A program made the translations under genes and the position numbers. A DNA stretch of 64,000 bases from a candidate division WOR-3 bacterium UBA6260 (lineage in GTDB: Bacteria > Hydrothermota > 32-111). Every line of letters begins with the position of its first letter. Position 1 is the first letter of the stretch. The stretch covers positions 8,175 through 72,174 of the forward strand of contig DJVI01000009.1 of NCBI GenBank assembly GCA_002441125.1, given 5' to 3'. The notes below the pieces were generated by a model. The model made no database searches and was not told the origin of the DNA. It saw only the letters and a program-made list of their open reading frames with translations. Shown in pieces: positions 3,316 through 15,679 of this stretch.

Positions 3316-4641
3316 TTACTTTTTAATCTTTTTCACAAAATTTTTCAAAACATCTTCAAGATTCGGTCTTCCTATTTCCTGAAGATCATAACCAACTCTT
3401 ACTGATGGTTTGTTTATTTTCACAAGTCTACCAAGATTTATAGGTGTAGCAATAACTATTGTATCACATGGTATCTTGTTTATTGTTTTTTCAAGGTCTG
3501 AGATCTGTTTTTTAGAATAACCCATAGCTGGAAGGATAGGTCCCGCTTCAGAATATTTTTCGTATGTTTCTTTTATTTCACCGACAGCGTATGGATGTGG
3601 ATCTATTATCTCTTTTGCTCCAAACCTTTTTGCTGCAACTACTCCAGCACCATATTTCATTTCACCATGTGTGAGTGTTGGTCCATCCTCAACTACAGCT
3701 ACTCTTTTTCCCTTTATTAGTTCTGGCTTTTCAACTGAGACAGGTGATGCTGCCTCTATAACTGTCGCTTTTGGATTTACCTTTGCAATACTTTCTCTAA
3801 CTATCTCGACATTTTCAGGTTTCGCTGAATCTATTTTGTTTATAACTATTACATCTGCAAGTCTAATGTTTACACAACCAGGATAGTATGTTAACTCATG
3901 TCCCGGTCTATGTGGATCGGCAACAGTTATAACAAGATCAGGTTTATAGAATGGGAAATCATTGTTTCCACCATCCCAAAGAATTATATCAGCTTCCTTT
4001 TCAGCCTGTCTTATTATATCCTCATAATCAACACCAGCATAAACAACTGTTCCATTATTTATATGTGGTTCATACTCTTCCATCTCTTCTATTGTACAGT
4101 TATGTTTTTTAAGATCTTCTATTGAAGCAAACCTCTGAACTCTTTGCTTTTCAAGGTCTCCATAAGGCATAGGATGCCTTATAGCAACGAGTTTGTAACC
4201 CATATTTCTGAGAATTGAAGAGACAGCCCTTGTTGTCTGTGATTTTCCAGAACCTGTTCTAACCGCAACTATAGATACAACTGGTTTTGTTGATTTTATG
4301 TATGTTTGTTCTGGACCAAGAAGCATATAACTTGCACCAGCAGCCATAGCCTCTGCACCTTTTGACATAACATATTGATTTGAAACATCAGAATAAGAGA
4401 AAACAACAAGATCGACCTTCTTCTCTTTTATTATTTTTGCCATATCCTTTTCATCATAGATTGGAATACCTTTTTTATAAAGTTTTCCAGCGAGTGATGG
4501 TGGATACAATCTTCCCTCTATATCTGGGATCTGTGTAGCAGTAAAACCAACAACCTCATATTCTTCATTATTTCTAAAATAAACATTAAAATTATGGAAA
4601 TCTCTCCCTGCAGCACCTAAAATCAAAACTCTCTTTTTCAT
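3316..4641 (-). CDS. COG2403-family predicted GTPase (cyclic 2,3-diphosphoglycerate synthetase-like)
   Basis: 441 aa. P-loop-like AVRTGSGKSQTT. Size and composition resemble the cDPGS/'predicted GTPase' family. The family assignment comes from memory of the motif layout and was not searched. Confidence 0.45.
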   Translation of the reverse strand: MKKRVLILGAAGRDFHNFNVYFRNNEEYEVVGFTATQIPDIEGRLYPPSLAGKLYKKGIPIYDEKDMAKIIKEKKVDLVVFSYSDVSNQYVMSKGAEAMAAGASYMLLGPEQTYIKSTKPVVSIVAVRTGSGKSQTTRAVSSILRNMGYKLVAIRHPMPYGDLEKQRVQRFASIEDLKKHNCTIEEMEEYEPHINNGTVVYAGVDYEDIIRQAEKEADIILWDGGNNDFPFYKPDLVITVADPHRPGHELTYYPGCVNIRLADVIVINKIDSAKPENVEIVRESIAKVNPKATVIEAASPVSVEKPELIKGKRVAVVEDGPTLTHGEMKYGAGVVAAKRFGAKEIIDPHPYAVGEIKETYEKYSEAGPILPAMGYSKKQISDLEKTINKIPCDTIVIATPINLGRLVKINKPSVRVGYDLQEIGRPNLEDVLKNFVKKIKK

Positions 4642-4732
4642 AACTAAACCTCCTAAAATTAAAACTATTTTTTACTTATAATAAAAAAAATAAGTTAACA
4701 TAATAAAATATTGTTGTCAATAGGTAAAATTT

Positions 4733-5758
4733 CTATTGTTTTTTTATGATCAGGTTCAAAAATGGATAAAAGAATCCTTCACTAATTTTTGGGTATATAG
4801 ATCTTAAAACATTTAAATATCTCCGCTCAACTGAAAATGGAACCAAAAATTGTTTCAAATATGAAACTACCTTTATTTTTTCAACTTTACTGTTTAAAGC
4901 AATTTCAAACTCATGAAAACTCACCCCTCTTCCCCTTCTTAAAAAATGAAGGAATTTCTCATCTGAAAATTCTTTGTATAGTTCTCTGAAATTACTTCTT
5001 TCACTGAATTTAGTATAATCGAACGCCAACCTATCAGGTAGCCAGTTGAAAAATGGTAGCAAAGATGTGTGTTCATCAAAATACCATAATCTGTTTGGAG
5101 CTTCAACAACAATTAAGAAAGAACCATTTGAAAGTATCGAAAAATATTTTTTAATTGATTCTATCCTTTCTTCATACAACATATGCTCTAAAGATGCGTA
5201 AAAAATTATCACATCAAATTTTTTTTCTTTAACTTTTTCAAAAAGTTCTAAACAGTTGCCAGATAAAAAATCAGCTTCAAGCCCATAAATTTTCATTCTC
5301 TCTTTTGCTATATTTAAACTACTCTCATCTATATCTATTCCTGTAACAAAAGCACCCTGTTCTGTTAAAGCAACAGTTGATGAACCTGTTCCACATCCAA
5401 TCTCAAGTATATTTGAGTTTTTAAGTTTAACAGTTTTATTTATCCAAGGTATATAATGGTATCTATTTTCAAAAAGCCTAAGATAGAGTTGAGTTTTTAA
5501 ATCATTTTCAAAAACTTTTTTAGAAAAATTATCTTTTCCTCTCCAACCTTTGAAAAATTCTTCTTCAAGAAGTCTTTTAAATTTCTCCAATTTTTCTTCA
5601 TCAACATTTCTAAAATTCTCTTTAAGTTTTTTGGGAAGAGTTTCTTTTTCAATTTTTTTATAAACTCTGTTAAAAAATCTTTTCATAAAAACCCTATTAA
5701 ATTTTTTAAACGAATACTCCCAAAAAGTCAAGACTTTTTTTAAATGGAAACCTTTCAA
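4733..5758 (-). CDS. class I SAM-dependent methyltransferase
   Basis: 341 aa. Motif I LEIGCGTGSST followed by acidic motif II (GIDIDE). Confidence 0.6.
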   Translation of the reverse strand: MKGFHLKKVLTFWEYSFKKFNRVFMKRFFNRVYKKIEKETLPKKLKENFRNVDEEKLEKFKRLLEEEFFKGWRGKDNFSKKVFENDLKTQLYLRLFENRYHYIPWINKTVKLKNSNILEIGCGTGSSTVALTEQGAFVTGIDIDESSLNIAKERMKIYGLEADFLSGNCLELFEKVKEKKFDVIIFYASLEHMLYEERIESIKKYFSILSNGSFLIVVEAPNRLWYFDEHTSLLPFFNWLPDRLAFDYTKFSERSNFRELYKEFSDEKFLHFLRRGRGVSFHEFEIALNSKVEKIKVVSYLKQFLVPFSVERRYLNVLRSIYPKISEGFFYPFLNLIIKKQ

Positions 5759-5938
5759 ATTTTAAAAATTTATGATTAAAACTTTTTGTATTAATGGCAA
5801 ACAGAGTTTCCAAAAATCATTTCAAAAAACATCCTTTTTAAACTTACTTCTAATCGTTGCGATAATCTAATGGCTATTCATAGTTTTTTATTTCTTTAAA
5901 AAATCATCAATAAAGGGAAAAAAGTAATATTTTTTTCT

Positions 5939-5976
5939 TCAAAAATGTCACACTGTCAAGCACCGTCCCCAATATT
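5939..5976. repeat. 38-bp direct repeat, left copy (tcaaaaatgtcacactgtcaagcaccgtccccaatatt); overlaps the 3' end of the KAP NTPase gene
   Basis: Identical by inspection to 15946-15983. It encodes the KAP protein's last residues NIGDGA plus the stop codon on the minus strand. Confidence 0.85.
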
Positions 5977-7944
5977 TGAATTTGAAATACCGTTACCAAT
6001 ATTGGAATTATTTACTATTTCCTTAAGTTTATTTAAACTATTTGTAATATCCTCTTTGAGATATTCATCAAAATTTTCTTTTTCCATTTCCATTTTATCA
6101 TTTACTTTAGCTAAAATATTTTGAAAAATATCTTTGACTTTTGCTTTATCATAATTACTAATAACATTAATCAAAATCTCTTCCAATAAAAGATCTCTTA
6201 TACTTAAACGAGATCCTTCTTTTACAAGTCGAAGATTATTTAAATAATGTTCTTTGATTTCATTTTTAAAGTTATCAAAATCTTTATTAAAAAATTCTAA
6301 AATTTCATTTATTGACTTAAATTTTTTTTTATTTATTTCTAAAAGATTTTCTTTTAAACCTAAATATAAATTCAGATTATATATTCTAAATAATCTTTTG
6401 AATAAAATAAATTGAACTACTTTTTTTTCGTTTTTTTTCATACCCTTAATAGTATTTTCAAATATGTCTTTAAAATCCAATTTTTCTTTAAATATTTCTC
6501 TAATAAAATTTATAATCATATTTTCTTGTTCTTCTTCATTATTTTTATAATTTATTTTAAAATAAATTAAAAACAATATAAGTTCCATTACACTTTTAAT
6601 CTCAACAATATTTTTATTAAGTAATAATTCTACTTTTTCAATAAAATTGTTTACTTTAGTTTTTTCGTCCTTATCACTTGACTGACCTAATATCTTATCC
6701 GAAATTTGTTCATTATTCTCTTTAAGGTTAATTAAATTTATATCTAATTGATGGATAAATAAAATCCTTTGGGTCATTAAATGTTCCCATATTAAAGGAT
6801 GCTTAAATTTTAACCATTCAATTAGGATAATATCTAACAAAAAAATATTCTCTGCTATTTCTTTTCTACCTTTTATTATTTGTTTCACATTTTCTGTTAA
6901 CATAATAACATCTCTAAAATCATCAAAATCAAAAATACTCGTTGATGTTAAGATATTGTTTAATAAAGCCAATATCAATTCTTTTTGAGAATCGTCATTA
7001 GATAAATGTTCATCAATTATTTCTATTTTTATTTTTTCTTGAAAAAAATCTCTCAAAATTTCAATAGGATTAACAAGTTCTATTTTATAATCGAATGTTT
7101 TATTTAAATAACCACTTATTAAATATTCCTTTTCAAAAATATTCATTAAAGCATTTCTATCAATAGTTGTTATAAGGTAAAAATTTGGAATCCTGCTAAA
7201 GCAGTTTATAAATTTAAATATCTCCAAAATTGTTTCACTATCTATTAATCTATCTAATTCATCTAATATTAGTATAAATTTTTTAGATTTAATATTTTTC
7301 TTAATATGATTTTTAAAATGGTTTAATCTATTTTCAAAATTTATAAGATCATCAATGTAAAATTTAAAACCACTAACTGTTACATCATAGTTTCTAAATA
7401 TATTTTCCCAATAACAATACCTAAATTTTAATCCTAAAAATTTTATAAGATTGTAATATATCTGCTCAGAAGAATAAAAACTTATTAAATTAAGATAAAC
7501 AATTTCTATTTCTTTATCTTTTTTACTTCCATTACTTTTTTTACAAAATGTTTTTTGAAAATATTTTAATAGAGTTGACTTACCTGTTCCCCATTTCCCT
7601 ACTACAGCAATTGTTGCATTATTAATCTCCACATTTTCAATAATACTCTTTAATTCTTCACAATTCTTTTTGATATTATATGCAGGTTCATCTATATTAC
7701 TCAAATGAGTATTTTTAATTTCATCATCTGAATATTGTACATTATTGAAAAATGTATCTCTCAAATACAAGATAAAAATAGAAATAATCAATAACAGTAA
7801 TGGTAAAATTATATTTAACAAATTTAGAAAATAATTGTAAAAAAGTTTAATTTTGAAAATTAATAACAAAATTAATAGAAAAAAGATTATTAAACCTATT
7901 CTATTTATAAACTTTTCTTTATTTGAATTAAACCACATCGACAA
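5956..7944 (-). CDS. KAP-family P-loop NTPase with N-terminal transmembrane helices
   Basis: 662 aa. Walker A AVVGKWGTGKST and Walker B ILILDELDRL, in the KAP NTPase arrangement. Two strongly hydrophobic N-terminal segments. Very AT- and Lys/Asn-rich. Confidence 0.65.
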   Translation of the reverse strand: MSMWFNSNKEKFINRIGLIIFFLLILLLIFKIKLFYNYFLNLLNIILPLLLLIISIFILYLRDTFFNNVQYSDDEIKNTHLSNIDEPAYNIKKNCEELKSIIENVEINNATIAVVGKWGTGKSTLLKYFQKTFCKKSNGSKKDKEIEIVYLNLISFYSSEQIYYNLIKFLGLKFRYCYWENIFRNYDVTVSGFKFYIDDLINFENRLNHFKNHIKKNIKSKKFILILDELDRLIDSETILEIFKFINCFSRIPNFYLITTIDRNALMNIFEKEYLISGYLNKTFDYKIELVNPIEILRDFFQEKIKIEIIDEHLSNDDSQKELILALLNNILTSTSIFDFDDFRDVIMLTENVKQIIKGRKEIAENIFLLDIILIEWLKFKHPLIWEHLMTQRILFIHQLDINLINLKENNEQISDKILGQSSDKDEKTKVNNFIEKVELLLNKNIVEIKSVMELILFLIYFKINYKNNEEEQENMIINFIREIFKEKLDFKDIFENTIKGMKKNEKKVVQFILFKRLFRIYNLNLYLGLKENLLEINKKKFKSINEILEFFNKDFDNFKNEIKEHYLNNLRLVKEGSRLSIRDLLLEEILINVISNYDKAKVKDIFQNILAKVNDKMEMEKENFDEYLKEDITNSLNKLKEIVNNSNIGNGISNSNIGDGA

Positions 7945-8266
7945 TTTTTATCTTATTTTAAGGAACCAATCTTTGAAATTTAAAAACTTTATTCCTAACT
8001 TCATTCCCTTTATACTTTTTTAAAATTATAAACAATAAAATTACTAAATCAAGCAAAAATTTTAAGTCAATTTACTTGTTTTGAATAACCTACATTGAAA
8101 TAAGTGATGGTATATTTATCTATAAAACTTAAAATAATCATAATAAAAATCATTTAAACATAGTAAAGTAAAAGGTCTTTATCTAACATTACATTAAGTC
8201 CTATAATTAAAAATATCCTTTTCTCAATAATATCTTATTTTATAACAGTTTTTGCAATTTTTATTT

Positions 8267-8365
8267 CTCATTCCCTTCCACTATTTTTATTTCTTCCTCA
8301 GTCAAACCATATAATTTATAAACCATCTGGTCAATCTGGCGTTCGTATTCTTTGACTTTGGCCTG
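8267..8365 (-). pseudogene. Duplicated ~100-bp fragment: 3' end of the MmeI-family methyltransferase gene plus the ATGA start/stop junction (non-functional remnant)
   Basis: About 90% identical by eye to 9292-9395. Translates on the minus strand to ...QAKVKEYERQIDQMVYKLYGLTEEEIKIVEGNEK*, against GLTDEEIKIVEGRQ* in the intact gene. It retains the overlapping ATG but continues into a 15-codon junk ORF. Confidence 0.7.
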
Positions 8366-8372
8366 GCAAATT

Positions 8373-9296
8373 TTAAAATAATGACAATTCCCCTTGTCCA
8401 GATTTTTCCTCAACATATTTTAAATTTCTATTAGTATAAAACTGGTTCCTATATCTTTTTGGGTCGCCAATATCTGTTTTTTCTTTTGGGAAAAATCTAA
8501 CCATTATTCTCTTATTATAAGAACTATTTTTCGTATTATCAATTAGTTCAATGAGTAATGGCAAATAACAATCAGCAAGTTCTTCTCTATATTTTGATTT
8601 TTTACTCTTTTCAATACCATGAATAATACTTGTTGTTACACCGAGAACACAATCACATAATTGTATTAGGTTGGAACGTCTGTCTACTTTATGGTCTTTT
8701 GGAAGAAAAGTTATTTCTTTACAATTGAAGAATATATCTTCTTGTTCACTTATTTTGTAAATACAGTGCCAAGGGAAATATTTGTGTTGTTTTTGTTGTC
8801 CATCCTCGTGATAAATATTCTCAACAATAATTTTTTTATTCCCAAAAAATGTTTTTATGGCATATAATAATGCTGACCGAAAAAAACGATTGTATTTACT
8901 ATTGAAGTCATTATTCTGGTCAAACTCTTCTTTTGAAAGGTATGAGTTATTTAATCCAAGAATATATGAATAAAATTTCTTTTGACTTTTATCAGGGTTT
9001 AAAATATACTCAAACCATCTTCTACATATATTTTTTTCATCTGCACTTGCAATTTCTGACCAATGCATAATATGGTTGTTTTTCACATAATAAGGAGAAT
9101 TTATATCAAAATTGCCCTTAAATCGTTCCTGAATAATATCATCAAGTAAAGGATTGTCAATATCTTCAACAATCAACCCTATGTAATGCCATTCATTCCC
9201 AGTATATGAACAAAATTTGGATTGGATTTCATCGGCATAAATATTAATTGTAACAGGATTTTCTTTTATTTCATTACCAAATAAATCCTTGCTCAT
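8373..9296 (-). CDS. hypothetical protein (possibly DUF3800-like), translationally coupled to the methyltransferase
   Basis: 307 aa. Its start ATG overlaps the methyltransferase stop TGA (ATGA). An N-terminal INIYADE motif is loosely similar to the DUF3800 'iyiDES' signature. No other recognisable motif. Confidence 0.5.
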   Translation of the reverse strand: MSKDLFGNEIKENPVTINIYADEIQSKFCSYTGNEWHYIGLIVEDIDNPLLDDIIQERFKGNFDINSPYYVKNNHIMHWSEIASADEKNICRRWFEYILNPDKSQKKFYSYILGLNNSYLSKEEFDQNNDFNSKYNRFFRSALLYAIKTFFGNKKIIVENIYHEDGQQKQHKYFPWHCIYKISEQEDIFFNCKEITFLPKDHKVDRRSNLIQLCDCVLGVTTSIIHGIEKSKKSKYREELADCYLPLLIELIDNTKNSSYNKRIMVRFFPKEKTDIGDPKRYRNQFYTNRNLKYVEEKSGQGELSLF

Positions 9297-12200
9297 TGTC
9301 TCCCTTCCACTATTTTTATTTCCTCATCAGTCAAACCATATAATTTATAAACCATCTGGTCAATCTGGCGTTCGTATTCTTTAACTTTGGCCTGCTTTTC
9401 TTTGTTCTGCAAATAATCATCGTCTTTTGTTATTTCAAGAATTTTATCTACGATGTCAATAAAGGGTTGTTGGTCAATTTTTTCTAGTTCAACTATTGGT
9501 AAAGAATATAAAGCATAAATCCTAAACTGCGCAAGGGTTCGGTTTTTCTGACCGTATAAACCATTTTGATATAAAAAAGACAATAGTTTAGATGAAAACA
9601 AAGCTAATAGTAGTTTTATATTTATATAATTCATTTTGGATTTTACAACATATAAATTTTGATGAGCAATTGCAAAATCATATTTCACGGGTGGGACACA
9701 TAATATTGTATCTCCTGTTTTTCTAATAAAAATTCTTTCACCATTATGTAAATTATAATCATATTTTTGGCATTGTTTTTTTGGTAGATAAACTATTTTT
9801 GCGTAACAGTATCTGTTTAATAGATCATCTCTGATTATAGGTAAAACATTTTTTGATTTTTTGTAAAAAATTTTAGAAAAATTATTATCTAATGAATGTT
9901 CACCTTCCGATATTTTACAATATTCTTTCATTTTTTTGAGGACGTTTAAATAAATCTTTTTTGCTAAATGATTTTTATAAAAACAAATATTCCCATTAAT
10001 ATATTCAACCTTGACTAATTCCTCATTTATAATGTCTCTAAGTATATATTTTCTTATTAAGTCACGTTCTATCATTTTTATATCCGAATAATTTACATAT
10101 TTATTTTCAGACTTTAATTTTTGTGAAATAAATATTGCCGTGGCAACAATTGGTTCTTCAAAAATATTGAAACCTAAATCTACTATAATAATATTATGGA
10201 ATTTATTAATAATTATATCCCGTATATCAGCATATTTAGATAGTGTAATATATGTGTTTGGAGTAATATATGTTATTATTCCTTTTTCCTTTATAATTTG
10301 AGTCCCAAGTTGTATAAACCATTTATATAAATCCTTACATCCTTTTGAGGATTCTGGAAATCTTTTTGTTATATCCGCCAATTCTTTTTCTAATAATTCT
10401 GCTTCCTTTCTTTTTCCTTTTCTTATTAATTCTTTTACAGGACTACCTTTCCCACTTAGAAATTTATACGGAGGATTTGCAATGACAATATCAAACCCAT
10501 TTTTTTCGCGAAATACTTCAGAAAAATAAATATGAAAGTCAAATTCTATATTTCCAATAGTATGGTCTATTGTTCTTAAAAATTTTAGTTGTTCGATAAA
10601 TAATTTTTGAATCTCATCTCTAATTTTAACTTTTTCCATTAAGGATGTAGTAGAAAATAAAAGTTTTTTCTTCTCTTCTATTCTTTCGTTAATATTATTA
10701 TTTGGTAGAATATTTTCTGGTAAACCTAAAAGTGAATTTCCGCATACAAGTTTGTAATCCAGGTTTGGCAAAGGTTTTATTTTTGTAACATCATCTTCGT
10801 CAACTATTAGAGAAAGCCAGAACCTGAGTTTAGCAATATCTATTGCTGATGAATCAATATCTACGCCATAAATACAGTTTTCAATGCAATGACGTTTGAA
10901 ATTATATGATGTTCGTCCCTCTTGGTTAGATAAAAAATTTGTTAAAATATTTCTTGCCTTTACAATTTCCAGCATCATTCCAACAGGAAAGGCGCCTGAA
11001 CCAACGGCAGGATCGCAAACACGGATGTTTTCTAATTTTTCATCTATAAGTTTAGCATTATTCTTTATACTTTCAGGCATCTTAATCTTTTTATATTTCC
11101 CATTATATTCCGGGTTTTCTTCTATCCTTGCAATGACAAGTTTATCGTGTTCAATTGTTATATCTCCGTATTTAATAAGTATTTCAATATCTTCTTTTTT
11201 CACCTTGCCTTCACATTCTGTTGCTAAATAATTTATCAAACTCTCCTGGCACATATAATGAACAATCTCACGAGGAGTATAATATGCCCCCTGACCTTTT
11301 CGCAAGTTCTCTTCAATCAGGTTTTCAAAAACTTTACCAAGTAATTCAGGATCAAGAGCGACCTCTTTTTCAAGTGGCTCATCTTCTTGCACAGTAAAAT
11401 TATACCTATCAAAAACATCAAGAATGCCAGTGCCTATATCTCCTTCTTTCGTTTTTTCATTATTAGAGAACAATTCATTAGGAATAATTAAATCTTTTTT
11501 TTGCCAGTCGTAGTTGTTTACTGGTTCAAAAAGACCACCATTTAAAAATGGGATTTTACAATCAAAATAGTTTGAATATGTTGAATCTGCCTGATTTGTT
11601 CTTGGATTATTTAATGTGTTATAAAACAATACTTCAAGATAATCATTAAAGAAATTTTTCTTTTCTTCACTGCACTTTTTAAATAATGAACGCAGAAAAT
11701 TCCTGTCCCCTTCTCCCCAGTTTTTATCTTTTGGAACACCAAGCCAACCCTTCTTTTGTAAAAAATAGAGGAAGACTATTTGACCTAAAAGTTTTTTGGA
11801 AAAGTCTGATGTTTTTATCTTTTTATTTTCAAATTCTTCTTTAACATTATTATCATTTTTAACAATTGTTTCAATGGTATTATTTAATTTCTGATATAGG
11901 CTAAGGTATTGACTAAGAAATTCTTTTGTAATTTTTTCAACACTAAACGCTTTTTCAAGTTGTTCTAATGTGGGATTATTTACATCATCTTGTAAAATAG
12001 GGAGTAATTGTTGTTGAGCAGTATGATTGGGCTCATTTTTGCCTACCAGAAAAGAATATCTACGAGCAGGTGTAAACTCTTCTTCTCCTTTTGGCTTGCC
12101 TGATTTTGTTTGTGTTAATTTGTATTCCTTTTTAACCAGAGAAAAACGCCAATCGTCAAGTTCTGGTGAAACAAAAGCAACAACAGCAGCATCTTTTTCT

Positions 12201-12517
12201 TTAACAGAACCATATTTACCAGCAAGATAACCTGCAATAAAATTTCGTTGCATTGTCCTGGCACGTTCAATTGAAGTTTCTTTTTTTAAGTAAACTATTA
12301 AAATATCAATTCTTTTGTCTTCTGATACATATTTGCCAACTCGTTCGTATTTGTTAATATATGGCTCATATGTATCTGGTATGTATTGTCCATGATATTC
12401 AAACGGTTCCAAAGAAATTTTATTAAATAAGTTCTTTACAAAATAGACAAATCTTTCCTTTTCAAAAGAGTTTTCAAATGTTTCTCTTATCAATTTTATA
12501 GCAGATTTTTTATCCAT
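9293..12517 (-). CDS. MmeI/PglX-family gamma-class N6-adenine DNA methyltransferase (Type IIG/IIL-like), with N-terminal MmeI-like domain and C-terminal target-recognition region
   Basis: 1074 aa. Motif X GAYYTPREIV, motif I DPAVGSGAFPVG, motif IV VIANPPYKF. Stretches resemble MmeI by recall (RNFIAGY, LFYNTLNNP...IPFLNGGLFEP). C-terminal ...LYGLTDEEIKIVEG helix. GAAGG RBS 8 nt upstream, inside the helicase 3' end. Confidence 0.8.
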   Translation of the reverse strand: MDKKSAIKLIRETFENSFEKERFVYFVKNLFNKISLEPFEYHGQYIPDTYEPYINKYERVGKYVSEDKRIDILIVYLKKETSIERARTMQRNFIAGYLAGKYGSVKEKDAAVVAFVSPELDDWRFSLVKKEYKLTQTKSGKPKGEEEFTPARRYSFLVGKNEPNHTAQQQLLPILQDDVNNPTLEQLEKAFSVEKITKEFLSQYLSLYQKLNNTIETIVKNDNNVKEEFENKKIKTSDFSKKLLGQIVFLYFLQKKGWLGVPKDKNWGEGDRNFLRSLFKKCSEEKKNFFNDYLEVLFYNTLNNPRTNQADSTYSNYFDCKIPFLNGGLFEPVNNYDWQKKDLIIPNELFSNNEKTKEGDIGTGILDVFDRYNFTVQEDEPLEKEVALDPELLGKVFENLIEENLRKGQGAYYTPREIVHYMCQESLINYLATECEGKVKKEDIEILIKYGDITIEHDKLVIARIEENPEYNGKYKKIKMPESIKNNAKLIDEKLENIRVCDPAVGSGAFPVGMMLEIVKARNILTNFLSNQEGRTSYNFKRHCIENCIYGVDIDSSAIDIAKLRFWLSLIVDEDDVTKIKPLPNLDYKLVCGNSLLGLPENILPNNNINERIEEKKKLLFSTTSLMEKVKIRDEIQKLFIEQLKFLRTIDHTIGNIEFDFHIYFSEVFREKNGFDIVIANPPYKFLSGKGSPVKELIRKGKRKEAELLEKELADITKRFPESSKGCKDLYKWFIQLGTQIIKEKGIITYITPNTYITLSKYADIRDIIINKFHNIIIVDLGFNIFEEPIVATAIFISQKLKSENKYVNYSDIKMIERDLIRKYILRDIINEELVKVEYINGNICFYKNHLAKKIYLNVLKKMKEYCKISEGEHSLDNNFSKIFYKKSKNVLPIIRDDLLNRYCYAKIVYLPKKQCQKYDYNLHNGERIFIRKTGDTILCVPPVKYDFAIAHQNLYVVKSKMNYINIKLLLALFSSKLLSFLYQNGLYGQKNRTLAQFRIYALYSLPIVELEKIDQQPFIDIVDKILEITKDDDYLQNKEKQAKVKEYERQIDQMVYKLYGLTDEEIKIVEGRQ

Positions 12518-12520
12518 AAA

Positions 12521-15500
12521 TTAGCCTTCTTTAATAAGGTATTCAGAAAGTATAACTTCTCTCGGACCAGATGTCTGCCCTGGTAACTCAGAGCTTGGTG
12601 TTTTAAAAAATGTTTCAGGAATATTCTTCTTTATTATTCCATATATTTTTAAGTAATTGTTTTCTTTTCCAATTTTTTTTATTATATTTTTAACTGTTTG
12701 TTTAGGTATAACTCCTTCTTCAAGTAGAATTAGAACTTTGTTTAAATACTCTTCATCATCTTCAGTAAAACCTTTCATTTTTGATATTGCCTTTATTAAA
12801 ATCTTTAATCTTACATCACTACTTTTACCACCTTTGGTTTTAACTTCTTGAATATCTTCAACTAATGATGACTTAAAAGCATCTTTGTTCTTGTCTAAGT
12901 AGTCATAATATTTCTGACCTATTTTTTCTCGTTTAGTATCTTTGTTTGATTTCAATATTTCTGCTGTTTGAAAGAAATCCAATTCTTTTGTTGATTCTGC
13001 GTTACTAATAAACATTTTTCTTAATTTACCTTTTCTAAAAAAAGTTATTACAGATTCTTTATCAACAGAATGAATTTTAGCACTTCGTGCTTTTTTAGGT
13101 AAGCGTTTTATTTTTTCAAATAAGTCAGGATTATTGTCCCTGATATTTCTGAGTTCAGAAAGGTATTTAAGTTCGGACTCTTCTGATTCCTCACCTTCAA
13201 TAACTTCTTTAGAATTTAACCTTTTGAAAAGTTCAAATGAATTGACCTCTTCCCCTTCAGTTAAATAAGATGCATCTTCACCAAGAATATTGTGGAAAGC
13301 CTGCAATTTTCCAATAGCTGCTTCTTCTAATTTTATTTCTTCATTTGATTGGACTGTCGGAAAGAAATTATAAATAAAAATTTTATCAAACTGTGTATCT
13401 ACTCTGTTTATACGACCTACTCTTTGAATTATACGAACAGGATTCCAAGGAATATCATAATTTATAATAACATTGGAACGATGAAGATTAACTCCTTCAG
13501 AAAGAATATCTGTGGTAATTAAAATTTTTATATCGTCTTTTGGCTTACTGCTTTTTGGATCAAAATTTTCAATTATTTTTTCCTTTATAGGAGCACCTGA
13601 TTTGCTGGAAAATGATATAACAGCGTCTTTATACATACTCTTTAAATTCTTTTCAAGATATTCCGCTGTTTCCATTGATTCGGTAAAAACAATTATCTTA
13701 TTTTCTTTCAATATTTTATCTGTTGATAGTTTATGTATAAACTCATTGATTTTAGGGTCTGTTGTTATATCTTCCCAAAGCGTTTTTATTTCTTTTAAAA
13801 TTTTTAAGTCATTGTTCAGGTCTTCAATAAATTCTGGTCTAAATTCATTTATTTTATATTTTCTAACTTTTTCTTCTTCAATCAATTTCATTATTTCATC
13901 AATATTGTCATTTTCTAAAAGGTCAAATATTTTATTGGTATATTTTTTACTGATGTAAATAGTTCCTTTATCGAACATATTGATAAATTGCTCATAAGAA
14001 TATATAAATCTATCAAGTGTATTTTTAAACGCAAAAAAACTGCTTTCAAGCCTTTTGACAAGCAACACCTTCATAAATACTTTTAAATTTTTCTGTCCAA
14101 TTTCCTCCTCTTGGATAGGATTTTCTAAATATAAGAGCGGTGTATATCTGGAATACTTAAATAGTTTTATTTTATTTATTGTTTCATTAAAAATAAAATC
14201 TGTCTTTTCATCAAATTTATAATATAGTCTTTTAGGTGTCTTTACATCGGGGAACTTTAACCCTTTTTTTGTCAGGTCTTTACTGAAATACTTTTTTATA
14301 TCTTCTCTTGTTCTGCGAACTATAAGATATTTCAGGACATCTTCCCTTATCTTTTTTGAATTATCTTTCATGATTTTTATATATTTATCGAATTCTTTTA
14401 ATCGGTCTATTCCTTTTAGTCGTTTTTGCAATGTATTAAAATATTTTTCCAGATTTTTTATATTAGGAATTGTGCTATTTCTTCCTTTTTGAAATAGTTT
14501 TATCTGACTTAATATATCATTTGGAGTATTGTTCTGCGGTGTAGCTGAAATCAAAATTACCCTTTTCCCCCAGCATATCTGTTTTAATTTTTCATAAGTT
14601 TGCGTTGACTCATTACGAAACCTGTGTGCTTCATCTATAAAAACATTTTTGTATTCTCTTTTTTTTGTTATTTCAATTATATCATCTAACTTCCCTAACG
14701 ACTCTACAATAACTGGAACATGAAAATCCTGAAATGTGCTTTCCCAATAATCTTTAAGGATTGGTGGACAGATAACTAAATTACGACCATCTAACTGTTG
14801 TGCCAGCATTGCAGAAATATATGTCTTACCAAGACCTACTACATCTGACAGGAATACACCGCCATATTCTTCTAATTTATTTTTAGCATCACTTACTGCT
14901 TCCCGTTGATATTCAAAATTCATAAAACCGTGCGGAACATCAGGTGTGTTTATTTCCTCTTGATCAATATTTATTGTTTCCTTAAAATATTCATACAAAT
15001 ATTTTAAGTAGAGTTCGTAAGGAGTTATACTCTCATTAACCCATGTTCTGGTCTTGATTGTTTCAATATATTCCTGCGAGATATCCACTGAATTCTCCCA
15101 CAATTTGTTAAATGCAGTGATAGCAAATTCATAATCAGACGGGTTTTTTAGTTCAACATTAAATTCTAAGTTTTCTTTAAGACCAGCCTTAGTAAAGTTG
15201 CTCGAACCTGTAATAACTCTTCCTATATCTCTATCATTCTCTTTAAAAGTCATGATATAAAGTTTTGAATGTATATTTTCAGTAGGATATGCTTTAATCT
15301 CTATTTTCCCCTTTTGTACCCATTCAACGAATTTTGACACACCTTCTTCAACATTATGATTATCATCCGAATACTCCATTTCTTTTATAATGGAGCCATT
15401 AATTTTTTCTTTAACTTCAGAATAAGAATAGTAGAGGTTTAGTTGTTCATTTAATCTTGCTTTTTCAATATTTTCCATAGTTTCCTTATCAGTACATATT

Positions 15501-15679
15501 CCAACTAAGATCCTTATTTTTTCAGTATTCTCTAAAGATTTATAAAGTTCATAAAAACCGCTCATATAAAAATACCCAACCAAGACATCAAAATAACGAG
15601 TATCTTTTATAAGTAATTTGAATCTTTCAAGAAGGCTTTTATCTTTTTCGTTGGTAATAAATGTTAAATCTGAATCCAT
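12521..15679 (-). CDS. PLD-family (HKD) nuclease domain fused to SNF2/DEAH-box superfamily-2 helicase
   Basis: 1052 aa. N-terminal PLD motif IHSKLYI...GSSNFT. Helicase motif I GLGKTYIS, motif II VFIDEAHRFRN, motif III ILISATPQN, motifs V/VI ...TDILSEGVNL...QRVGRINR. Only 3 nt separate its stop from the methyltransferase start. Confidence 0.8.
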   Translation of the reverse strand: MDSDLTFITNEKDKSLLERFKLLIKDTRYFDVLVGYFYMSGFYELYKSLENTEKIRILVGICTDKETMENIEKARLNEQLNLYYSYSEVKEKINGSIIKEMEYSDDNHNVEEGVSKFVEWVQKGKIEIKAYPTENIHSKLYIMTFKENDRDIGRVITGSSNFTKAGLKENLEFNVELKNPSDYEFAITAFNKLWENSVDISQEYIETIKTRTWVNESITPYELYLKYLYEYFKETINIDQEEINTPDVPHGFMNFEYQREAVSDAKNKLEEYGGVFLSDVVGLGKTYISAMLAQQLDGRNLVICPPILKDYWESTFQDFHVPVIVESLGKLDDIIEITKKREYKNVFIDEAHRFRNESTQTYEKLKQICWGKRVILISATPQNNTPNDILSQIKLFQKGRNSTIPNIKNLEKYFNTLQKRLKGIDRLKEFDKYIKIMKDNSKKIREDVLKYLIVRRTREDIKKYFSKDLTKKGLKFPDVKTPKRLYYKFDEKTDFIFNETINKIKLFKYSRYTPLLYLENPIQEEEIGQKNLKVFMKVLLVKRLESSFFAFKNTLDRFIYSYEQFINMFDKGTIYISKKYTNKIFDLLENDNIDEIMKLIEEEKVRKYKINEFRPEFIEDLNNDLKILKEIKTLWEDITTDPKINEFIHKLSTDKILKENKIIVFTESMETAEYLEKNLKSMYKDAVISFSSKSGAPIKEKIIENFDPKSSKPKDDIKILITTDILSEGVNLHRSNVIINYDIPWNPVRIIQRVGRINRVDTQFDKIFIYNFFPTVQSNEEIKLEEAAIGKLQAFHNILGEDASYLTEGEEVNSFELFKRLNSKEVIEGEESEESELKYLSELRNIRDNNPDLFEKIKRLPKKARSAKIHSVDKESVITFFRKGKLRKMFISNAESTKELDFFQTAEILKSNKDTKREKIGQKYYDYLDKNKDAFKSSLVEDIQEVKTKGGKSSDVRLKILIKAISKMKGFTEDDEEYLNKVLILLEEGVIPKQTVKNIIKKIGKENNYLKIYGIIKKNIPETFFKTPSSELPGQTSGPREVILSEYLIKEG

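What the first reader, a model, noticed from the sequence alone, without database searches (positions are those of the whole stretch)
8267..9395. ~100-bp duplication of the methyltransferase 3' end and ATGA junction flanking the 307-aa gene (cassette-insertion footprint)
The 3' end of the methyltransferase ORF, including the overlapping ATGA stop/start junction, recurs about 90% identical at 8267-8365, just past the 307-aa gene's stop. The remnant encodes ...LYGLTEEEIKIVEGNEK*, against ...LYGLTDEEIKIVEGRQ* in the intact copy. It also retains the downstream ATG, but that leads only into a 15-codon junk ORF. The 307-aa gene is therefore flanked by direct repeats of the conserved methyltransferase C-terminal helix region, as if it had been inserted, or an earlier downstream gene swapped out, by recombination at that conserved 3' end.
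Basis: seen in the sequence. Interest (0 to 1): 0.6.

Follow-up and report, generated by a model that had tools for sequence, protein, structure and literature searches.

The report
Leftover methyltransferase gene end marks insertion
The repeat is a real leftover of an older end of a DNA-methyltransferase gene, left behind when a nuclease-like gene was recombined in, and related loci in many phyla hold different defence genes between such leftovers.

Summary
Window 8272-8365 and 9301-9394 are a 94-nt direct repeat, 91/94 identical, and unique in the 64 kb (BLAST E 4.5e-41).

All genes are on the minus strand. The upstream copy is the working 3' end of a 1074-aa Eco57I-family methyltransferase, which follows a PLD+SNF2 helicase. 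The downstream copy is a dead relic.

The relic is still joined to a decayed 5' stub of an ORF6N gene. A relative without the 307-aa gene (L102) has the undisturbed order, methyltransferase then ORF6N. So the 307-aa gene (p307, predicted RNase H-like fold) arrived together with a replacement methyltransferase end.

The pattern recurs. An HMM of the methyltransferase C-terminus finds 34 relics in 24 independent loci, and all 86 hits are co-oriented. Relics bracket p307 and also UvrD helicase, ATPases, DarT-Macro, Schlafen-like and HEAT genes. They also precede SIR2 and Mrr genes.

The two copies differ mostly at third codon positions (27/22/82), and some loci carry mismatched relic types. The copies therefore come from different alleles rather than from an in-place duplication. 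Relics now evolve neutrally.

Best explanation: repeated recombination anchored on the conserved methyltransferase C-terminal region. The enzymology is inferred, not shown.

The parts
12521..15679 (-). PLD (HKD) nuclease + SNF2 helicase, 1052 aa; first gene of the operon
   Evidence: ORF. Pfam PLDc_2, SNF2-rel_dom, Helicase_C. PADLOC 'HKD+Snf2' E 3e-42 and DrmD-like.
9293..12517 (-). Eco57I-family (type IIG-like) N6-adenine DNA methyltransferase, 1074 aa
   Evidence: Pfam Eco57I 1e-27, N6_Mtase, weak TaqI_C. PADLOC REase_MTase_IIG 2e-251.
9395..10724 (-). Variable, specificity-domain-containing segment of the methyltransferase gene. It has been exchanged between the window and its close relatives L029 and L104.
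   Evidence: Flanks are 98-99% identical and this block is unalignable. The left breakpoint is the same, at window 10724/10725, in both comparisons. The right boundary lies at or in the repeat.
9301..9394 (-). Upstream repeat copy: the working 3' end of the methyltransferase (conserved C-terminal helix region). It ends 5 nt before the 307-aa gene's start codon.
8373..9296 (-). 307-aa gene (p307). Its start overlaps the methyltransferase stop (ATGA). Predicted RNase H-like fold. No family assignment.
8261..8365 (-). Downstream relic of an older methyltransferase 3' end: the repeat at 8272-8365 plus the old last codons and stop ...GNEK*. It lies inside a spurious 51-aa ORF (8261-8416).
   Evidence: HMM of methyltransferase C-termini, E 2e-19. 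About 88% identical to the natural methyltransferase end of L102 (my count from the alignment).
8160..8252 (-). Decayed 5' stub of an ORF6N-domain gene, the former downstream neighbour of the methyltransferase
   Evidence: Nucleotide match of window 8365..8172 to the L102 methyltransferase end plus the ORF6N start, 81% over 194 nt. tblastn with the L095 ORF6N protein gives 71% over 31 aa with an in-frame stop. ORF6N Pfam E 7e-36.

Best explanation
The distal 94-nt copy is a non-functional relic of an earlier 3' end of the methyltransferase gene.

The ancestral locus read helicase - methyltransferase(...EGNEK*) - ORF6N. A piece of DNA from a related locus recombined in. It carried a methyltransferase 3' part fused by an ATGA overlap to the 307-aa gene. 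Its left crossover was by homology inside the methyltransferase gene. Its right end joined about 105 nt before the resident stop codon. The resident C-terminal coding segment and its neighbour were therefore pushed downstream, and have since decayed.

The roughly 55-codon conserved C-terminal region follows the hypervariable specificity domain. It is the only homology available on that side, so it acts as the anchor. Once a gene is flanked by two copies of this region, an ordinary double crossover can carry it into any methyltransferase gene with a similar end. Repeated rounds would build arrays of the form methyltransferase - gene - relic - gene - relic.

Shown: the relic, its polarity, its recurrence, its allelic origin and its neutral decay. 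Inferred: the recombination steps, and whether the first right-hand joint in each lineage was illegitimate.
For: Repeat real and unique in the window.

Polarity. The relic is contiguous with an ORF6N stub. L102 has methyltransferase-ORF6N without p307. L030 has methyltransferase-p307-relic-ORF6N.

Recurrence. BLAST finds flanking repeats abutting the p307 start and stop in 13 loci besides the window and its identical copy L001: L029, L005, L008, L030, L031, L033, L047, L051, L052 and L053, more weakly L007 and L043, and L038, whose BLAST copy lies 742 nt past the stop. They cover three unrelated C-terminal sequence types.

HMM survey. 86 hits, all on the methyltransferase strand. 34 are relics, in 24 unique loci.

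Junctions kept. Of the 25 relics with a downstream ORF of at least 100 aa, 20 have it starting within -23 to +72 nt of the relic's stop. Each module is therefore a methyltransferase end plus its tightly coupled downstream gene.

Other cargo bracketed in the same way: L007, L008, L020, L034, L038, L045, L106, L107. A relic precedes the cargo in L033 and L061.

Copies come from different alleles. Pooled pN/pS is 0.21 and differences by codon position are 27/22/82. An in-place duplication followed by neutral decay is rejected at p 6e-5 under assumed rates. L016 has a type B end upstream and a type C relic downstream. L045 and L056 have a type D methyltransferase with type A relics. The L033 relic has a different linker. 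L104 has a diverged upstream copy but the window's relic.

Relics are now neutral. Orthologous relics differ evenly over codon positions ([9,10,12], [15,13,14]), while working ends differ at third positions ([2,1,14], [0,2,17]). Stops or frameshifts occur in L008, L052, L009, L029 and L056.

The conserved end serves as a crossover site. The window, L029 and L104 carry three different specificity segments between one shared left breakpoint and the repeat.
Against: No recombination intermediate, donor or empty site of the very same lineage was seen. L102 is only 86-90% identical.

In every locus the relic begins within about 0-55 nt of the cargo's stop, and no relic includes part of the specificity domain. 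That is more regular than random illegitimate joining would give. It has to be explained by inheritance of an older joint plus homology-guided transfer.

The three unrelated C-terminal types need at least three independent founding events, and their mechanism is unknown.

In the window and L029 the two copies are 95-97% identical, whereas the sister loci L030 and L031 have 77-86%. This requires later gene conversion or a more recent exchange.

The survey was seeded with p307-containing loci. Only six p307-independent methyltransferase loci were examined, and two of them carry relics.
Confidence: 0.7

Rival explanations
1. p307 is a minimal mobile element. Its RNase H-like protein acts as a transposase or integrase that targets the 3' end of Eco57I-family methyltransferase genes. 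It makes staggered cuts about 50-155 nt apart, and the repeat is a very long target-site duplication.
Against: Unrelated cargo genes are bracketed the same way without p307 (L106, L107) or next to it. The two copies are of different types in L016, L045 and L056, and are diverged in L104. Differences are third-position biased, which a fresh duplication does not predict. Repeat length varies from 50 to 155 nt. No inverted repeats sit at the ends of p307. The best structural matches are RNase HII/HIII and PIWI, not transposases. p307 also occurs with no anchors in non-methyltransferase contexts (L003, L044, L048, L050).
Confidence: 0.1
2. The duplication is kept by selection. One form of this idea is a loop-out switch: recombination between the repeats deletes p307 and leaves an intact hybrid methyltransferase. 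Another is a cis-regulatory or antisense RNA element that acts on the methyltransferase/p307 junction.
For: The window and L029 copies are 95-97% identical although sister loci show 77-86%. Many relics keep an open frame through a stop codon at the natural position. p307 stubs and losses exist (L095, L028).
Against: Orthologous relics diverge evenly over codon positions, as neutral DNA does. Several carry stops, frameshifts or internal insertions. The RNA fold is no better than shuffles (z 0.15). No Rfam match. No terminator, and no clear excess of promoter-like sites (17 found against 11.9 +/- 3.2 in shuffles). The reading-frame relation between p307 and the relic differs between loci, which excludes a conserved frameshift fusion.
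Confidence: 0.1
3. Chance similarity, low-complexity similarity or an assembly artefact.
For: The genome is AT-rich (30% GC). The C-terminal motif is widespread at the protein level.
Against: 91/94 identity, E 4.5e-41, with no other copy in 64 kb. The same structure appears in four independent assemblies.
Confidence: 0.01

Closest known systems
Orphan module arrays of Rhs and CdiA polymorphic toxin loci (own knowledge; not checked in the library)
   Same: Incoming DNA recombines by homology in a conserved part of a long gene and brings a new 3' part plus a tightly linked downstream gene. The displaced old 3' fragment and its partner gene stay downstream in direct orientation. Repeated rounds give arrays.
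   Different: Here the displaced piece is only the conserved last 22-55 codons, not a variable toxin tip. The cargo are accessory defence genes, not immunity genes. The host gene is a DNA methyltransferase of a helicase-nuclease defence system.
Integrative elements that carry a replacement 3' end of their target gene, such as e14 and phage 21 in icd, or tRNA-gene integrating islands (own knowledge)
   Same: The insertion leaves a direct repeat. The new 3' end completes the gene and the old 3' end persists as a pseudogene fragment on the far side. The copies differ mainly at synonymous sites.
   Different: No integrase or att core is evident. The insert is about 1 kb and holds a single gene. 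Repeat length and boundaries vary, and many different cargo genes use the same spot.
Specificity-domain shuffling by homologous recombination in conserved flanks of restriction-modification specificity genes: type I hsdS cassettes (PMC7394358) and tandem-paralogue units spanning adjacent genes (PMC2568036). Both papers were seen as title and abstract only.
   Same: Conserved segments flanking a variable specificity domain serve as crossover sites. The window, L029 and L104 show exactly such an exchange.
   Different: Those systems swap domains without leaving co-oriented relics that bracket unrelated genes. Phase-variable hsdS systems use inverted repeats and often a recombinase.
Integron gene cassettes and CRISPR repeat duplication (analogy only)
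   Same: An array of short direct repeats alternates with acquired units. In some arrays the more distal relics look more decayed (L008, L038, L009, L034).
   Different: No IntI, attC hairpin or Cas1-Cas2. The repeat is a coding-gene fragment whose sequence tracks the local methyltransferase. Three unrelated repeat types exist.
PLD/HKD+SNF2 helicase with Eco57I-like methyltransferase defence pairs: PADLOC 'HKD+Snf2' and DrmD/DrmMI-like, and the loci noted in PMC9881135
   Same: The window operon has this two-gene core.
   Different: A third, translationally coupled RNase H-like gene (p307) is not part of any described system that I could find.

Membership tests
PLD(HKD)+SNF2 helicase / Eco57I-family methyltransferase restriction-like system | Helicase protein with an N-terminal PLD/HKD nuclease domain and an SNF2 helicase core | tested here: met
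   Pfam PLDc_2 1.8e-10, SNF2-rel_dom, Helicase_C. PADLOC HKD+Snf2 3e-42.
PLD(HKD)+SNF2 helicase / Eco57I-family methyltransferase restriction-like system | Adjacent, co-oriented Eco57I/N6_Mtase methyltransferase with a TaqI_C-type specificity region | tested here: met
   Pfam Eco57I 1e-27; TaqI_C 3.8e-4, below its cut-off. PADLOC REase_MTase_IIG 2e-251. The same gene pair is in L005 and L102-L108.
DISARM class 1 | DrmA helicase, DrmB (DUF1998) and DrmC present together with DrmD and DrmMI | tested here: not met
   Only DrmD-like and DrmMI-like partial matches. No protein in the island matches DrmB or DrmC, and the sole DrmA match is a secondary hit of the helicase itself.
BREX | PglZ and BrxC/PglY together with PglX | tested here: not met
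   PglX models match only partially and far below cut-off (76 bits against 500). None of the six island proteins scanned, from 3316-4641 to 12521-15679, matches PglZ or BrxC.
Transposable element with target-site duplication | Terminal inverted repeats or defined element ends, and a fixed-length duplication | tested here: not met
   No inverted repeats at the ends of p307. Duplication length is 50-155 nt and its boundaries vary.
Transposable element with target-site duplication | Element-encoded transposase or integrase | tested here: inconclusive
   p307 has an RNase H-like fold, but its nearest structures are RNase HII/HIII and PIWI. Activity cannot be tested with these tools.
Diversity-generating retroelement | Reverse transcriptase, and template/variable repeats that differ at template adenines | tested here: not met
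   No reverse-transcriptase domain. The three mismatches are T/C, T/G and G/A, which is not adenine-specific.
Integron | IntI tyrosine recombinase, and attC sites that fold as hairpins | tested here: not met
   No recombinase in the island or its flanks. Repeat fold z-score 0.15.
RNase H-like superfamily (for p307) | RNase H-like alpha/beta fold with acidic residues on the first strand | tested here: met
RNase HII family / DUF3800 (for p307) | Significant sequence or profile match to the family | tested here: inconclusive
   No PDB sequence hit to RNase H. DUF3800 matches only 4 of 24 members, best E 0.27. hhalign probability 2.6%, although it aligns the shared QL.D motif.

The most novel reading that the evidence does not exclude
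The conserved 3' end of Eco57I-family methyltransferase genes may work as a portable, recombinase-independent attachment sequence. Accessory defence genes flanked by two copies of it would be captured, stacked and exchanged between helicase-methyltransferase systems across bacterial and archaeal phyla. That would be a homology-anchored cassette array that builds defence islands, and it would let new defence genes be found simply because relics bracket them. A stronger version is that a locus-encoded enzyme promotes the process: the RNase H-like p307, or the IS200-like Y1 protein that recurs at array ends.
Probability: 0.3. Interest if true: 0.8.

Novelty: new variant of a known kind. Interest (0 to 1): 0.62.

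Why it matters
How defence islands are assembled, and how accessory genes come to join core systems, is largely unexplained. These relics give a concrete mechanism that can be read from sequence. The only conserved stretch after a hypervariable specificity domain serves as the crossover anchor. Each exchange leaves a dated scar.

Three things follow.

- The scars mark which genes were once translationally coupled partners of such methyltransferases. This nominates p307 and several unannotated genes as accessory defence components.
- They show that specificity domains and accessory genes are exchanged as modules, even between phyla.
- They explain spurious small ORF calls and assembly breaks next to these genes.

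Tried and rejected
- Diversity-generating retroelement reading: the mismatches are not adenine-specific and there is no reverse transcriptase.
- Structured RNA or an attC-like hairpin: fold z-score 0.15, no Rfam hit, no terminator.
- Frameshift fusion of p307 to the relic: the frame relation differs between loci.
- Assembly artefact: the same structure is in four independent assemblies.
- p307 on plasmids or phages: no tblastn match in either collection.
- Exact look-up of the downstream 662-aa ATPase, to find p307-free contexts: not on record.
- Fold search against afdb50: the library was unavailable.
- PDB sequence search with the p307 profile: only spurious helical hits.
- DUF3800 relationship: weak and inconclusive.
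- BREX-related 'BR' systems (PMC12839542): they are centred on DUF499, which was not detected here.
- Literature searches for relic-bracketed cassettes at methyltransferase ends found no description. The library is incomplete, so this is not proof of novelty.
- A possible p307 5' stub after the type B relics: BLAST extends only about 12 nt into p307, so I left it as unsupported.
Full report
ANATOMY. All the relevant genes lie on the minus strand.
- 12521-15679: a 1052-aa protein with a PLD/HKD nuclease domain and an SNF2 helicase core.
- 9293-12517: a 1074-aa Eco57I-family N6-adenine methyltransferase (Pfam Eco57I 1e-27; PADLOC type IIG model 2e-251).
- 8373-9296: a 307-aa gene (p307) whose ATG overlaps the methyltransferase stop (ATGA).
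- 8261-8416: a 51-aa ORF that contains the distal repeat copy.
- 5956-7944: a 662-aa P-loop ATPase.

The island spans 3316-15679. It sits between housekeeping genes, a carbamate-kinase-like gene on one side and an F420-ligase-like gene plus MurJ on the other. No integrase or transposase is present. The window is 30% GC.

THE OBSERVATION. Window 8272-8365 and 9301-9394 form a 94-nt direct repeat, 91/94 identical, spaced 1029 nt apart. It is unique in the window: BLAST E is 4.5e-41 and the next best match is 22 nt with E 0.055. The copies encode QAKVKEYERQIDQMVYKLYGLT(D/E)EEIKIVEG. The working copy ends GRQ* and the distal copy ends GNEK*. The structure recurs in independent assemblies (L001, L029, L104). 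The repeat does not fold better than shuffled sequence (z 0.15). It matches no Rfam family and has no terminator.

POLARITY OF THE EVENT. L102 is a relative whose helicase and methyltransferase genes are 86-87% identical in nucleotides to the window's, outside the variable segment. Its methyltransferase ends ...IVEGNER* and is followed directly by an ORF6N-domain gene, with no p307. Window 8365..8172, which is the relic plus about 100 nt beyond it, aligns to the L102 methyltransferase end plus the start of ORF6N at 81% over 194 nt. The window stretch translates to an ORF6N N-terminus, 71% identical over 31 aa with an in-frame stop (ORF6N Pfam 7e-36). L030 carries methyltransferase-p307-relic-ORF6N, with ORF6N intact as far as the contig goes. 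So the distal copy is the old, resident methyltransferase end, still attached to its old neighbour. The proximal copy and p307 are the incoming DNA. In the window lineage ORF6N has since decayed.

RECURRENCE. I fetched 101 loci that encode p307 relatives. BLAST of the upstream flank against the downstream flank found direct repeats abutting the p307 start and stop in these loci:

| Locus | Length (nt) | Identity |
|---|---|---|
| L029 | 94 | 95% |
| L005 | 152 | 88% |
| L008 | 76 | 89% |
| L030 | 77 | 77% |
| L031 | 88 | 86% |
| L033 | 71 | 80% |
| L047 | 152 | 84% |
| L051 | 152 | 84% |
| L052 | 145 | 86% |
| L053 | 143 | 72% |

L007 and L043 gave weaker matches. L038 has two relics: one just past the p307 stop, found at the protein level, and one 742 nt downstream. 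The repeats belong to three unrelated C-terminal sequence types. Type A ends ...QIDQMVYKLYGLTEEEIKIVEG. Type B ends ...DRIMPDRRELDKIVFEVLGLTEEEQLEVYRAVLELVKNRLLKAKSK. Type C is the L005 type. In these loci the relic matches the local type, so the architecture arose or was renewed several times.

I then built an HMM from the last 62 residues of 120 methyltransferase homologues and searched the six-frame fragments of all loci. It gave 86 hits, all on the methyltransferase strand (binomial p 2.6e-26). Of these, 34 are relics that no contig end can explain, spread over 24 non-redundant loci. The type B relics are not counted, because the HMM is biased towards type A.

NOT ONLY p307. Relics bracket other genes:
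- L007: methyltransferase - 963-aa SMC_N-like ATPase - relic - p307 - relic.
- L008: methyltransferase - UvrD helicase - relic - p307 - relic - IS200-like Y1 gene - relic.
- L045: methyltransferase - p307 - short relic - AAA_15 ATPase - relic - Y1 gene.
- L020: gene resembling L015's radical-SAM gene (shared C-terminal motif only) - relic - DarT-Macro - relic - p307.
- L034: p307 - relic - two unannotated genes - relic - ORF6N.
- L038: methyltransferase - p307 - relic - 189-aa gene - relic.
- L033: relic followed by a SIR2-like gene.
- L061: relic followed by an Mrr_cat gene.
- L095: a graveyard holding ORF6N, a relic, a 46-aa p307 stub, a relic of the Y1 gene and an anchor fragment.

Six methyltransferase loci were chosen without reference to p307. 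Two of them carry a relic right after the first downstream gene: L106 after a Schlafen/AlbA_2-HATPase gene and L107 after a HEAT-repeat gene. L102, L103, L105 and L108 have none.

Of the 25 relics that have a downstream ORF of at least 100 aa, 20 have it starting within -23 to +72 nt of the relic's stop, as after an intact methyltransferase. Each unit is therefore a methyltransferase end plus the gene once coupled to it.

ORIGIN OF THE COPIES. Between the upstream and downstream copies, pooled pN/pS is 0.21 and differences by codon position are 27/22/82. An in-place duplication followed by neutral decay of one copy would give about 39/35/57 under assumed relative rates. This is rejected (chi-square 19.3, p 6e-5).

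Direct cases agree with this:
- L016 has a type B end upstream and a type C relic downstream.
- L045 and L056 have a type D methyltransferase with type A relics.
- The L033 relic carries a different linker sequence.
- L104 has a working end only about 75% identical to the window's over most of the conserved region, yet the same p307 and the same relic.

After the event, relics drift neutrally. Among the type B loci, relic-to-relic differences are even over codon positions ([9,10,12], [15,13,14]). Differences between working ends fall at third positions ([2,1,14], [0,2,17]). Several relics carry stops, frameshifts or insertions.

THE CONSERVED END AS A CROSSOVER SITE. The window, L029 and L104 are 98-99% identical over the helicase and the first roughly 600 codons of the methyltransferase. 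They are unalignable from window 10724 to about 9395-9462, which holds the specificity-domain segment. They become similar again from the repeat onward. The left breakpoint is the same in both comparisons. In L029 the exchanged segment brought its own stop codon, so even the copy upstream of p307 is a partly decayed relic there.

MECHANISM (inferred). Homology-driven module exchange accounts for all of this. The left crossover falls in the conserved methyltransferase body. The right crossover falls in the conserved C-terminal region. A gene flanked by two such regions can be inserted into any similar methyltransferase end by a double crossover. Stacking follows when the donor's distal relic pairs with the recipient's working end. 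The founding joint in each sequence type must have been non-homologous or based on one-sided homology, and I could not reconstruct it. The high identity of the window and L029 copies (95-97%, against 77-86% in the sister loci L030 and L031) implies later conversion or a recent exchange.

COMPARISON WITH WHAT IS KNOWN. From my own knowledge, the closest processes are the orphan arrays of Rhs and CdiA toxin loci, and integrative elements that bring a replacement 3' end for their target gene, such as e14 in icd. Specificity-domain exchange at conserved flanks is established for restriction-modification genes (PMC7394358 and PMC2568036, abstracts only). I found no description of methyltransferase-end relics that bracket accessory defence genes. 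The library is incomplete.

VERDICT. It is a new variant of a known kind of process. The mechanism is inferred from about 30 loci that were mostly selected through p307.

Noticed in passing
P0122 and P0138 (methyltransferase homologues); also L008 5750-6292, L045 8784-9356, L095 about 1250-1330: Two close methyltransferase homologues carry an in-frame internal insertion of an IS200-like Y1 transposase domain, flanked by a repeated 'VTQPSWLS' peptide. Free-standing genes of the same family sit as the last cassette after relics in L008 and L045. L095 holds a relic of one.
   Followed up: partly
window 8373-9296; P0001-P0120: p307 is far more conserved than its neighbours: 57-83% identity across metagenome-assembled genomes of many bacterial phyla and a Nanoarchaeota genome, against roughly 30-50% for the neighbouring methyltransferase and helicase. 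This suggests strong constraint and frequent horizontal transfer.
   Followed up: partly
window 9395-10724 versus L029 and L104: Three near-identical genomes carry three different specificity-domain segments in the methyltransferase, all with the same left breakpoint at window 10724/10725. This indicates a recombination hot spot and recent changes of specificity.
   Followed up: yes
window 3316-7944: Just downstream lies what may be a second system. It has a 662-aa AAA_22/KAP-like ATPase (PifA-like, weak mad8), a 341-aa SAM methyltransferase (PADLOC mad2 3e-21) and a 441-aa protein with a weak CobW-type GTPase match.
   Followed up: no
window 8261-8416; L001 1525-1680: The 51-aa ORF that covers the relic is called as a gene in a public annotation of the identical contig. 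It is a pseudogene fragment, not a gene.
   Followed up: yes
L002 (1033 nt), L006 (1101 nt), L016 (1084 nt): Several public contigs consist of p307 bounded by partial anchor copies. Assemblers probably break at the repeat. The same pattern would also be seen if presence/absence variants or circular forms existed.
   Followed up: no
L106 8186-8995: A DUF1016/YhcG nuclease-like gene is inserted between the helicase and the methyltransferase of an otherwise similar operon. The helicase-methyltransferase junction can therefore also take cargo.
   Followed up: no
L005 9085-9180; L014 upstream of p307; L015 downstream of p307: GC-rich palindromic REP-like units, for example CCGCCTCTGGCGG, flank some arrays.
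   Followed up: no
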